64,000 bases of DNA, taken from assembly GCF_016026235.1 (NCBI RefSeq), contig NZ_CP065613.1. One strand, given 5' to 3'. This document shows, in pieces, positions 32,060-35,000 of the stretch. Origin of the DNA: Escherichia coli (GTDB taxonomy: Bacteria > Pseudomonadota > Gammaproteobacteria > Enterobacterales > Enterobacteriaceae). Each line of letters starts with the position of its first letter. The first letter of the stretch is position 1. The position numbers are program-made.

Positions 32060-35000
32060 CTATCGCCCAGCGTTTCAGGTTCGGGGATGGCTGGCGGTAA
32101 CATATCCGGCGCAGGTTGTGGCGGTTCAATTTCACCTGCGGCAAGGACTTCCTCAATTAACGGTATTAATTTGCCCGTTAACTTAGTGCTACGGAAAATA
32201 TCACGACAGGCTAATCTGACTTCTTTATCAGGTTCTGCGGGTTGCCTCGCCGCTATTTCAAATGCCTTTGGTACAACCGAATCAAATTTAATGATATCGG
32301 CTATGTCATAAACAAATGAAAGCGGTTTGCCACTATGAATAAATCCAATAGCGGGCGCATATCCCGCGGCTAATACTGCCGCTTCAGAAATACCGTACAG
32401 ACATGATGTGGCAGCACTGATGCAGCGATTCACAACATCGCCTTTTTCCCAGTCTTTAGGATCGTATTTGCGACCATTCCATTTCACACCATATTGTTTC
32501 GCCAGTAATGCATAGGTCTGGCGAACGCGGGATCCCTCAATTCCCCGTAGCTGATCCACTGAACGGCGAGCTGGCGGTGGCTCACGAAAACGTAATTCAT
32601 ACATTTTGCGCACCACCTTCAGGCGTAGATCTTCCGTTAAAGCCAGCTTTGCCTGGTAGAGTAATTTATCTGCCCGCGCCCCTCCGGGTTGTCCGGAAGA
32701 GTAAACGCGAACGCCCGCTTCACCGACCCAGACCAGCAGTGTTCCCACCGTGGCGGCCAGATGCACCGCCGCGTGGGAAACTCTCGTTCCCGGTTCGAGC
32801 ATAATGCAGGCGACCGATCCCACCGGAATGTGCGTGCGGATCCCGGTTTTGTCGATCAGCACGAAAGCGCCGTCCAGTACGTCGATTTGACCGTACTGGA
32901 GGAAGATCATAGAGGTGCGATCTTTTAACGGGATCGGACTCAGTGGTACAAACGTCACACCTCTGCTCCGGGTTTGATCAGCATCAGACCACAGCCGAAC
33001 GCGCGGCTTTTGCCATACCCCTGACTGAGACGTTGCAGAAATAACCCGGGATCGGTGACCGTAAGCATCCCCGTATAATCCACGCTACTGAACTGGATCA
33101 GTTGCCAGGAGTTTTCCCGCCGCAGTTGCTGTTGTCGGTAGGCATCAACCGAGGTATCCAGCAGTGTAAAACCGCTTCTCTCCCCCTGCGCTGCCAGCCA
33201 GTCCAGCGCCGCCTGTTGTTGATGCAACCAGACATCACTTCCTTCTGCCTGCCCCCTCATCTGCCGTTTCGCCTCCATCAGCAGATCGTGGCGCTTGCCC
33301 GCTTTACAGATTGTTGGATTCGCCCGCAGGTTGAAACAAAGTTGTTGTCCGGTACGCAGCTCGGGCACAAATGACCGGCATTCGATGGTGAACGTTTCAC
33401 TTTCCGCCGGGCGTTCCTGCGACAGTACAAAAAAGCGAAACGCGCCCTGGAGTTCTTCCCGACGATAAAGAAATTGCCTTTCTTTGCCGCCAGGGAAGAG
33501 ATCCCACAGCCACTGATGCATCACATATTCCCCGCGATCCACCAGATGCAGCAACTGCGCAGGCGAAAGCTGGCCGGTATGTAAGGTTATTCTTGAGAGG
33601 TACATGGTTCCTCCTTGCTGAGCCACGGCCCCTGATTGACGGTGCGTTCCCCAAACAGCCATTGCTGACGATTTAAAGGAACATCCCGGCGGCGCAATAT
33701 TTTGCTCGCGACCAGGCCGTCGTGCTCCCCTTCCCACCAGCATTCATCCTGAAGTTTCGGGAGTGCGATTTTCAGGTCGTGGAAATGCTCCTGATACTGG
33801 TGATATGCGTTACGTAAAACATCAGACGCGTTGCCTTCGAGCAGTAACGGCGCAAGTGGTAATGCCAGCGGATGACTTTTTCGCCCCAGATAAAGAGGAA
33901 AAACTGGATGGCGTAAACCGCCCTGCAACTGTTCGAGGCTGTAAGGCGCATCGGCTGTTGTTGCCACCGCCACCATCCACCAGGCGTCGGTGTAGTAGTC
34001 GCGCCGGGAGATAATCGCGCTCAGAAGATCAGGGTCGCTCAACTCTTCGCGACGGCTGAAATAACGCGCTTTACGCACCTCTTTTGGCATCTGGATCGTG
34101 TGATAATCCCGTGCCCAGCGCGGGTTACGGCTGGCGCAAACCACCAGTGAATAGTGGCGATTAAACGCGTTTAAGCGTTCGGTATCATCACGCCGAATCC
34201 CTACCCCGGCAGCCAGCAGACCCAGCAATGCTGAGCGCAAAGGCAGTTCATGGGTATGACGCACTTCGCCGGGGGCATCGACGCCCCAGGATGCCATTGG
34301 CCCATGAAGCTGAAAAATCAGATATTGGCTCATAAGCCGCCCCTTACGCGCAGATAAAGTCCAGCACGTCCTTCATGCTTCCCTGTTTGTTCATCACGTC
34401 AAAACTTGCGCATTCGGTCTTCTGTTCGTAGACCGTATTCATATTTTCGCGAAGCGTTGTAATACGCTGCACCGCCACGTCTAACTGCCGGGTGCCATTA
34501 ATGGGTTCATAGAAGGCCGCAGCCAGAGAACGCGGTTGATCGGTGCCTTTTTCCGCCAGCGCCCAGGAAGCATAGGCACGGCTGGCAAAGCTATTTTGTT
34601 TACCGGTTGGGGAAACTTTAAGCGCGGCTTCCGTAAAAGCGCGTATGGTCTGATTAGCTAACGCTTCGTCACCGCCGAGGTTTTCTACCAGCAGATCTTT
34701 ATCAATGCAGATATAGGTGTAGAAAAGTGCTGAACCGAATCCGGTTTCTCCGAGATGCCCGGCACCGGCATCTTCAGAGGCCTAGCGCAAATCATCAACG
34801 GCGGTGAAAAAATCATCTTCGACAATCGTTTCACTGACACCAAACGCATGCGCGACCTGGCAGGCGGCTTCAACATTAAACTCAGGTTTATTCGCCAGCA
34901 TACGACCAAACATAGCGATATCTACCGCTATACGGTCTTTACGTAACAACGCGAGATCTTCCTCTTTTGGCGCGCGCTTTTCTTCTGCCAGTTGATGGGC

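What the first reader, a model, noticed from the sequence alone, without database searches (positions are those of the whole stretch)
34782..34784. In-frame amber codon truncates Cas7, the Cascade backbone subunit
The cas7 frame is open and Cas7-like for 351 codons apart from a single TAG at codon 206, reading ...[35 protein letters not shown].... A 205-aa product cannot form the crRNA-binding filament, so interference should be lost unless the strain carries an amber suppressor. A single clean nonsense codon in an otherwise intact gene points to a recent inactivation.
Basis: seen in the sequence. Interest (0 to 1): 0.7.

Follow-up and report, generated by a model that had tools for sequence, protein, structure and literature searches.

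The report
Hotspot amber mutation kills E. coli cas7
The stop codon is real and turns the Cas7 gene of an E. coli CRISPR system into an ordinary pseudogene, made by a classic C-to-T change at a methylated CCAGG site that has hit the same codon independently in several E. coli lineages.

Summary
Observation confirmed. cas7e lies on the minus strand (34344-35399) and codon 206 is TAG (34782-34784). The nearest intact E. coli alleles read CAG (Gln), so this is one C->T transition. It is not a sequencing error: seven other public assemblies have an identical cas7 with the TAG. One of them, an NCTC E. coli draft, matches the window 100% over 16.6 kb.

The ancestral context is CCAGG, a Dcm methylation site. 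The change CCAGG->CTAGG is the classic 5-methylcytosine deamination amber hotspot. The same TAG sits on at least nine cas7 haplotypes. Five of those backgrounds have an intact allele only 1-3 nt away. A second Dcm site (codon 181) is hit on at least three haplotypes and a third (codon 279) once. Seven look-ups at six matched non-Dcm codons found one genuine case.

The 205-aa product lacks half the thumb and the C-terminal palm, so Cascade cannot assemble. The closest complete genome has deleted the whole cas operon and array. An amber suppressor alone would therefore not restore interference.

Verdict: an ordinary decaying locus with a neat known mutational cause. Low interest.

The parts
34344..35399 (-). 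cas7e (casC/cse4) pseudogene: 351 codons with one internal TAG
   Evidence: Translation. TIGR01869 at 448 bits for the read-through protein. 99.8% identical to annotated cas7e of E. coli ES5.
34782..34784 (-). Amber codon 206 (TAG). The ancestral codon is CAG (Gln) and the mutated base is window 34784.
34781..34785 (-). Mutated Dcm site: CTAGG here, CCAGG in every intact allele examined. The inner C is the base methylated by Dcm.
   Evidence: Sequence context. Hotspot literature: PMC12606429, PMC2715241, PMC9520237.
34785..35399 (-). Remaining N-terminal ORF of 205 aa (N-terminal palm, fingers and proximal thumb only)
   Evidence: ORF list. Covers profile positions 1-206 of 325. Mapping to K-12 CasC domains.
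37607..40295 (-). cas3 pseudogene: an 11-bp deletion at 39296/39297 splits it into 378-aa (HD domain) and 557-aa (helicase) ORFs in different frames
   Evidence: tblastn shows a frame change. Alignment to ES5 cas3. NCBIfam hits of both pieces fall below the full-length Cas3 cut-off. The same deletion is in L003, L006, L008 and L009.
40478..41770 (-). IS4-family element (ISEc60-like) immediately upstream of cas3. Beyond it lies xdhD instead of hok/cysH (approximate ends).
   Evidence: Homology to ES5 ends at 40477. xdhD homology starts at about 41771. NF033591 IS4 transposase at 360 bits. Annotated ISEc60 in FDAARGOS_943.
35947..37509 (-). casA/cse1, intact
35414..35950 (-). casB/cse2, intact
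33587..34333 (-). cas5e, intact
32955..33605 (-). cas6e, intact
32038..32958 (-). cas1e, intact (306-aa allele)
31745..32038 (-). cas2e, intact
31315..31648 (-). CRISPR array: 6 repeats of 29 nt and 5 spacers, with the leader towards cas2

Best explanation
cas7e of this E. coli type I-E CRISPR-Cas locus is a pseudogene. Gln206 (CAG) sits inside a Dcm site, C-C-A-G-G, whose inner cytosine is normally 5-methylated. Deamination of that 5-methylcytosine to thymine, when it escapes very-short-patch repair, gives CTAGG and so an in-frame TAG. Translation stops after 205 residues. The fragment lacks the distal thumb and the C-terminal half of the palm, so it cannot oligomerise on crRNA, and no Cascade forms. 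In this strain interference is blocked twice, because cas3 is also frameshifted by an 11-bp deletion. The locus is part of an IS-rich lineage that is shedding the system. Relatives show the amber with cas3 intact, then the amber plus the cas3 deletion and an IS-mediated inversion (this window), and finally deletion of the whole cas operon and array.

Shown: the stop, the ancestral codon, the Dcm context, the recurrence on many haplotypes, the second lesion and the decay series.

Inferred: that the site was methylated, that deamination was the chemical event, and that function is lost.
For: - Stop and ancestral codon.
- Independent assemblies carry the same TAG.
- Context CGC-CAG-GCC contains CCAGG. 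cas7 has only 3 Dcm sites, and all three can yield a stop, out of 110 possible nonsense substitutions in the gene.
- Recurrence: T616 occurs on 9 distinct cas7 haplotypes that differ by up to 50 nt. Their CRISPR arrays differ.
- One-step ancestry: L007 differs from intact TUM13936 by 2 of 8866 nt. L004 differs from intact A30 by 18 of 13858 nt and has the same 2-spacer array. These two operons are 93-95.5% identical to each other and to the window. L028 and L029 are each 1 nt from many intact genomes.
- No amber-specific haplotype block exists. The tract shared around the site (gene positions 556-620) is invariant in intact alleles too.
- Prediction test with exact truncated products at Dcm codons. 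Codon 206: 38 blocks (I157 allele) and 180 blocks (M157 allele). Codon 181: 85 blocks on at least 3 haplotypes, all TGC-TAG-GT. Codon 279: 1 contig, CCTGG->CCTAG.
- The same test at non-Dcm transition-to-stop codons 136, 250, 268, 288, 305 and 311 found only contig-end partials or nothing. One genuine case turned up at codon 250.
- Literature: the lacI amber hotspots are at the second C of CCAGG (PMC12606429). VSP repair acts on CTWGG/CCWGG mismatches (PMC2715241). The C->T rate at Dcm sites is about 8-fold higher in natural E. coli and Salmonella genomes (Cherry 2018, as summarised in PMC9520237).
- Loss of function: residue 206 aligns to K-12 CasC residue ~208 within the thumb (190-223), and the palm resumes at 224.
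- Second lesion and decay series.
Against: - Methylation of this site in this strain was not measured, and dcm and vsr lie outside the window.
- 'Blocks' and contigs are not independent events, because clonal expansion inflates the counts. The quantitative enrichment is therefore rough, and the number of origins (at least 5) rests on haplotypes.
- Codon 181 was not found truncated on the I157 allele, so Dcm sites differ in yield.
- Other lesions in related loci are not at Dcm sites: cas3 Q493*, cas1 Y200* and the cas3 11-bp deletion. Deamination is therefore not the only decay route.
- Loss of function is inferred from structural homology, not tested.
- A suppressor tRNA elsewhere in the genome cannot be excluded from the window alone.
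Confidence: 0.85

Rival explanations
1. Sequencing or assembly error: the true sequence has a sense codon.
For: A single-base difference from the nearest complete genome. No complete RefSeq E. coli has the exact 61-mer.
Against: Seven other assemblies from different projects and platforms have an identical cas7 with the TAG, including one that matches the window 100% over 16.6 kb. The same TAG in other backgrounds is annotated by PGAP as 'internal stop' in complete genomes.
Confidence: 0.01
2. The gene is still functional because the TAG is read through, by a natural amber suppressor tRNA such as a supE-like glnV allele or by programmed read-through, giving full-length Cas7.
For: The frame downstream of the TAG is still open and unchanged, with 0 differences within the lineage. 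supE inserts Gln, the ancestral residue.
Against: There is no tRNA gene in the window. The same lineage went on to frameshift cas3 and, in its closest complete relative, to delete the whole operon, which argues against maintained function. Other TAG-bearing loci also carry cas1 stops or an IS in cas3. The intact downstream frame is expected for a young lesion. Suppressors are rare in wild isolates (general knowledge).
Confidence: 0.03
3. One ancient amber allele spread among E. coli lineages by homologous recombination, rather than by recurrent mutation.
For: E. coli cas operons are mosaic, with operons 93-96% identical while cas7 stays nearly identical. For L007 a transferred tract of up to about 800 bp from a window-type donor would leave no trace.
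Against: TAG haplotypes differ at the nearest informative sites on both sides (555 G/A and 621 C/T). Any shared tract is therefore at most 65 bp, and that tract is identical in intact alleles too. In L004 the tract would have to end within 5 bp of the TAG. Five backgrounds are 1-3 nt from intact alleles. Two other Dcm sites in the same gene show the same behaviour.
Confidence: 0.05
4. The recurrence reflects positive selection for losing Cascade, for example to relieve self-targeting or to allow uptake of plasmids and prophages, rather than mutation bias alone.
For: Loss-of-function lesions pile up in the same loci: cas3 deletion, IS insertions, cas1 stops and whole-operon deletion.
Against: Selection for loss should favour any nonsense site in cas7, yet matched non-Dcm sites are almost never hit. 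The allele is rare, in 2 strains among about 2,630 complete genomes with this cas7 type. The window's spacers gave no hit in the phage collection, and self-targets could not be searched. Neutral decay of a largely silent system explains the pile-up equally well (PMC10910852 abstract).
Confidence: 0.08

Closest known systems
lacI amber hotspots at Dcm sites (Coulondre, Miller, Farabaugh and Gilbert 1978) and Dcm-site hypermutation in natural enterobacterial populations (Cherry 2018)
   Same: The same sequence event: the second C of CCAGG changes to T, turning an in-frame CAG into TAG. It recurs far more often than comparable nonsense changes elsewhere in the gene.
   Different: Here it is seen in wild genomes in a CRISPR gene, not in a laboratory reporter. 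Methylation and the dependence on dcm and vsr were not tested.
Degenerate type I-E CRISPR-Cas loci of E. coli: cas pseudogenes, IS insertions and operon deletions at the iap-cysH locus
   Same: The same locus, gene order and kinds of lesion. PGAP already labels identical TAG alleles 'cas7e pseudogene, internal stop' in complete genomes. The system is generally regarded as silent and its arrays as static (PMC10910852 abstract).
   Different: This lineage shows an ordered series: the amber alone, then the cas3 deletion and an inversion, then complete deletion next to ISEc60.
Cas7e (CasC/Cse4), the backbone subunit of type I-E Cascade (PDB 4QYZ, 4TVX, 5H9F; closest solved chain 9UER_E)
   Same: The read-through protein is a full-length family member (TIGR01869 at 448 bits; 9uer_E E=7e-189).
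   Different: The encoded product stops at residue 205 in mid-thumb, so it lacks the part of the palm that forms the RRM and the subunit interfaces.

Membership tests
Cas7e / Cse4 / CasC (NCBIfam TIGR01869, Pfam PF09344) | Sequence matches the family profile above the curated cut-off over its full length | tested here: met
   The conceptual read-through protein scores 448 bits against a cut-off of 178 and covers profile positions 1-325 of 325.
Cas7e / Cse4 / CasC (NCBIfam TIGR01869, Pfam PF09344) | The encoded product contains the complete palm (RRM), fingers and thumb needed to form the crRNA-bound hexameric backbone | tested here: not met
   The ORF ends at residue 205, covering profile positions 1-206 of 325. 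This aligns to K-12 CasC residue ~208, inside the thumb (190-223) and ahead of the palm segment from 224 on. No downstream in-frame ORF of 60 aa or more exists.
Type I-E CRISPR-Cas system | Gene set cas3-casA-casB-cas7e-cas5e-cas6e-cas1e-cas2e next to an array of 29-nt repeats | tested here: met
   All eight genes are present in the canonical order, with 6 repeats.
Type I-E CRISPR-Cas system | Intact interference module (Cascade subunits and Cas3) | tested here: not met
   cas7e has a TAG at codon 206. cas3 has an 11-bp frameshifting deletion.
Dcm (5-methylcytosine) deamination hotspot mutation | The mutated base is the inner C of CCWGG and the change is C->T (or G->A on the other strand) | tested here: met
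   Intact alleles read CGC-CAG-GCC, which contains CCAGG. The window reads CTAGG.
Dcm (5-methylcytosine) deamination hotspot mutation | The same change recurs independently, in excess over comparable non-Dcm sites | tested here: met
   There are 9 TAG haplotypes, and 5 backgrounds have intact alleles 1-3 nt away. Dcm codons 181 and 279 are also hit. Six non-Dcm control codons yielded one genuine case. Counts are not phylogenetically corrected.
Dcm (5-methylcytosine) deamination hotspot mutation | The site is actually methylated, and the hotspot depends on dcm and is moderated by vsr | not testable with these tools
   dcm and vsr are outside the window, and no methylome data are available.

The most novel reading that the evidence does not exclude
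The Dcm-site ambers in cas7e (codons 181 and 206, and casB codon 140) might act as a mutation-biased and partly reversible population-level switch for CRISPR interference. In this reading 5-methylcytosine deamination turns Cascade off at a raised rate. Vsr-driven mis-correction of CTAGG back to CCAGG, a known side effect of very-short-patch repair, could turn it on again. E. coli populations would then always hold a minority of interference-null cells able to take up targeted plasmids or prophages. The present data show only the forward change recurring. Neither reversion nor any benefit was tested.
Probability: 0.05. Interest if true: 0.6.

Novelty: already known. Interest (0 to 1): 0.22.

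Why it matters
For this strain it means the type I-E system cannot interfere, because both cas7 and cas3 are broken. Its spacers therefore say nothing about current immunity, and a supE test would mislead.

More generally it is a clean natural example of a textbook mutational hotspot shaping which loss-of-function alleles of a defence system appear in wild E. coli. The same two glutamine codons of cas7 are knocked out again and again.

Two practical points follow. Identical cas7 stops in unrelated isolates are not evidence of shared ancestry. Surveys that score CRISPR-Cas as present from gene content alone will overcount functional systems.

Tried and rejected
- Sequencing error: rejected, because independent assemblies carry the TAG.
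- Shigella origin: suspected from the IS load, but public records name the protein and the closest genomes as E. coli.
- Exact 61-mer in complete RefSeq E. coli: 0 hits. I first read this as absence of the allele. I corrected that after a 37-mer in the commoner GCT context found 3 records from 2 strains.
- Suppressor tRNA: there are no tRNA genes in the window, so this is not assessable.
- C-terminal restart ORF: none of 60 aa or more in the window lineage.
- Large repeats within the window, as a search for a second IS copy: none.
- Spacers against the phage collection: the only hits were CRISPR arrays deposited as phage records, and no protospacer was found.
- Members of the 90% protein cluster were mostly contig-end partials and mis-clustered Cas5 fragments, so they were uninformative.
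- Control look-ups at codons 136, 250 and 288 returned products that proved to be contig-end partials, not stops.
- Cherry 2018 itself is not held. It is cited through PMC9520237 and PMC10710837.
- A hypermutator background through mutS: mutS is intact at 853 aa.

Full report
**1. The observation**

The cas7e gene lies on the minus strand at 34344-35399. Translated from 35399 downwards it gives a 351-codon frame with one internal stop at codon 206, reading ...[32 protein letters not shown].... The TAG is the complement of + strand CTA at 34782-34784. The read-through protein is a full-length Cas7e: TIGR01869 at 448 bits against a cut-off of 178, covering profile 1-325 of 325. The actual 205-aa product covers only profile 1-206. 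The closest solved chain is 9uer_E (E=7e-189).

**2. Organism, ancestral codon and reality of the stop**

The window is the iap-CRISPR-cas region of Escherichia coli. 2,648 of 5,426 complete RefSeq genomes carry this cas7 type. The best match, strain ES5, differs at two of 1,065 positions. One is synonymous and the other is C (ES5) versus T (window) at gene position 616, so the ancestral codon is CAG, Gln.

The exact 205-aa product is named 'CRISPR-associated protein [Escherichia coli]' (STM06210.1, CAD7363342.1). It is indexed in 38 blocks of the public assembly collection, and the cluster metadata lists it on 25 contigs. Locus L003 (GCA_900449985.1, UGFA01000002.1) is 100% identical to the window over 16,618 bp. 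L002, L005, L006, L008, L009 and L010, from other assemblies and sequencing runs, have an identical cas7 with the TAG. The stop is therefore a real allele shared by a lineage, not an error.

**3.

All other Cascade and adaptation genes are intact: casA, casB, cas5e, cas6e, cas1e and cas2e. A 6-repeat, 5-spacer array follows at 31315-31648.

cas3 is broken too. An 11-bp deletion at 39296/39297 shifts the frame and leaves 378-aa and 557-aa pieces.

Directly upstream of cas3 sits an IS4-family element of the ISEc60 type (about 40478-41770). Beyond it the window continues into xdhD-ygfM-ssnA-ygfK instead of hok-cysH.

Relatives show an ordered series:
- L002 and L005 have the TAG, the IS between hok and cas3, and an intact cas3.
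- The window, L003, L006, L008 and L009 add the cas3 deletion. The window and L003 also show the xdhD junction, which I read as an inversion between two IS copies.
- The closest complete genome, FDAARGOS_943, is 99.9% identical in both flanks and reads hok-ISEc60-iap, with the whole cas operon and array gone.

Arrays within the lineage differ only by internal spacers (s1-[s6]-s2-s3-s4-s5, or s1-s5), never by new leader-end spacers. The amber is thus an early step in the decay of the locus, not its only lesion.

**4. Why this codon**

Intact alleles read CGC-CAG-GCC. Gene positions 615-619 are therefore CCAGG, a Dcm site, and the mutated base is its inner cytosine. The window reads CTAGG.

This is the change that defined base-substitution hotspots in lacI. 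Amber sites at the second C of CCAGG were over-represented about ten-fold. They were absent in strains lacking cytosine methylation and were explained by deamination of 5-methylcytosine to thymine (PMC12606429). Very-short-patch repair acts on the resulting T:G mismatch in CTWGG/CCWGG (PMC2715241). In thousands of natural E. coli and Salmonella genomes this C mutates to T about 8-fold faster than other cytosines (Cherry 2018, as summarised in PMC9520237, and cited in PMC10710837).

cas7 has only three Dcm sites, and each can produce a stop (codons 181, 206 and 279). In total, 110 single-base substitutions in the gene would give a stop.

**5. Recurrence**

The look-up for the 205-aa product also returned two loci whose cas operons are only 93-95.5% identical to the window's and to each other.
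- L007 differs from the intact strain TUM13936 by 2 of 8,866 nt. One of these is position 616.
- L004 differs from the intact strain A30 by 18 of 13,858 nt and shares its two-spacer array. Its cas7 differs from the window's at 24 positions.

The commoner protein allele (M157 instead of I157), truncated at the same codon, is on record in 180 blocks. The six loci fetched all carry TAG, on further haplotypes and with different arrays.

Two complete RefSeq strains (2017.01.04CC and E1) carry it as well. PGAP labels their cas7e a pseudogene with an 'internal stop'. Each is one nucleotide from many intact genomes.

In all I saw 9 distinct TAG haplotypes, differing by up to 50 nt. The nearest variable sites on either side (555 G/A and 621 C/T) segregate among TAG alleles just as they do among CAG alleles. 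No amber-specific haplotype therefore exists, and any recombination tract would have to be 65 bp or shorter. Recurrent mutation, with at least five origins, is by far the simplest reading.

**6. Test of the hotspot prediction**

If Dcm deamination drives this, the other Dcm codons of cas7 should also be found truncated, and matched non-Dcm codons should not. I looked up exact truncated products.

| Codon | Dcm site? | Allele | Result |
|---|---|---|---|
| 181 | yes | M157 | 85 blocks; four loci, at least 3 haplotypes, all TGC-TAG-GT |
| 181 | yes | I157 | none |
| 279 | yes | I157 | one contig, CCTGG->CCTAG |
| 136, 250, 288 | no | I157 | contig-end partials only |
| 268, 305, 311 | no | I157 | nothing |
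| 250 | no | M157 | 14 contigs; of the six shown, five were contig-end partials and one was a genuine TAG |

One codon-181 locus also has casB Q140* at another CCAGG.

The counts are inflated by clonal expansion and are not corrected for phylogeny. The contrast is nevertheless large and in the predicted direction. Not every lesion in these loci is at a Dcm site (cas3 Q493*, cas1 Y200*, cas1 stops in L004, the 11-bp deletion), so deamination is one decay route among several.

**7. Consequence**

Residue 206 aligns to about residue 208 of E. coli K-12 CasC. In that protein the fingers are residues 59-180 and the thumb is 190-223. The palm is 1-58, 181-189 and 224 onwards. The thumb and palm form the subunit interfaces and clamp every sixth crRNA base, and thumb-tip residues H213 and L214 contact the target (PMC5965380).

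A 205-residue product therefore lacks the distal thumb and the C-terminal half of the RRM palm. No in-frame restart ORF of 60 aa or more follows. Loss of Cascade assembly is a strong inference, though it was not tested.

With 0 differences in cas7 within the lineage, the intact downstream frame only shows that the lesion is young. A suppressor cannot be assessed, because the window holds no tRNA gene. The later cas3 frameshift and the operon deletion in the sister genome argue that the system was no longer maintained. An untranslated stretch of about 440 nt before cas5e could also lower expression of downstream genes through polarity. That is inference only.

**8. Comparison with what is known, and verdict**

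This is a cas7e pseudogene in a decaying E. coli type I-E locus, produced by the classic Dcm amber hotspot. Both the kind of object and the mechanism are well known, and standard annotation already flags identical alleles. E. coli I-E systems are widely regarded as transcriptionally silent, with static arrays (PMC10910852 abstract), so such lesions are expected.

The modestly new point is that specific cas7e codons (206 and 181) are recurrent hotspot knock-outs across E. coli lineages. Identical stops are thus homoplasies rather than markers of descent.

The functional inference is reasonable. The proposed supE experiment would fail in this strain because of cas3. The interest of 0.7 is too high, and I score it 0.22.

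Noticed in passing
window 20174-21166 (minus strand); stop at 20627-20629: rpoS carries a nonsense mutation, CGA->TGA at codon 180. It splits the gene into a 179-aa N-terminal ORF and a 146-aa C-terminal ORF. The exact 63-mer occurs in only 1 of 5,405 complete E. coli genomes (NCTC11151). It is not at a Dcm site. rpoS null alleles are a familiar feature of long-stored culture-collection strains.
   Followed up: partly
window 39296/39297 (cas3, minus strand): An 11-bp deletion relative to ES5 (AGGGTTTGTTT) frameshifts cas3. It is shared by L003, L006, L008 and L009 but absent from L002 and L005, which carry the same cas7 amber.
   Followed up: yes
window ~40478-41770 and 41771-50117: An ISEc60-like IS4-family element joins the cas3 upstream region to xdhD-ygfM-ssnA-ygfK. 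These genes normally lie on the far side of cysH, more than 100 kb away. Relatives with cysH-hok-IS-cas3 (L002) imply an inversion between two IS copies.
   Followed up: partly
L014 (FDAARGOS_943, NZ_CP065615.1 4780883-4783440): The closest complete genome (99.9% in the flanks) reads hok-ISEc60-iap, so the entire cas operon and CRISPR array are deleted next to the IS. The genome is very IS-rich: 34 places match the query that contains ISEc60, and IS1, IS5, IS66, IS110 and ISSfl1 copies lie nearby.
   Followed up: partly
L018-L021 (cas7 codon 135/136): The 135-aa N-terminal Cas7 fragment is on record in 148 blocks, but in the loci shown the contig simply ends 2 nt after codon 135. Many assemblies break at exactly this point. 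The cause is unknown; an IS insertion in a common clone or a recurring assembly-graph break are possibilities.
   Followed up: no
L032 650-1069 (casB) and L030-L033 1741-1743 (cas7 codon 181): Further Dcm-site ambers occur in other E. coli: casB Q140* (TGC-TAG-GAG against TGC-CAG-GAG in L033) and cas7 Q181* on at least three haplotypes. One assembly (L032) carries both.
   Followed up: partly
L012 (A30), L004, L023, L026, L029: There are other cas lesions that are not at Dcm sites: cas3 Q493* in A30, two cas1 stops (codons 122 and 133) in L004, cas1 Y200* in L023, L026 and L029, and IS5 inside cas3 in strain E1 (L029).
   Followed up: partly
window 31315-31648: The five spacers gave no protospacer hit in the phage collection. 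The only hits were CRISPR arrays deposited under phage names (for example OR845838.1, OR851156.1).
   Followed up: partly
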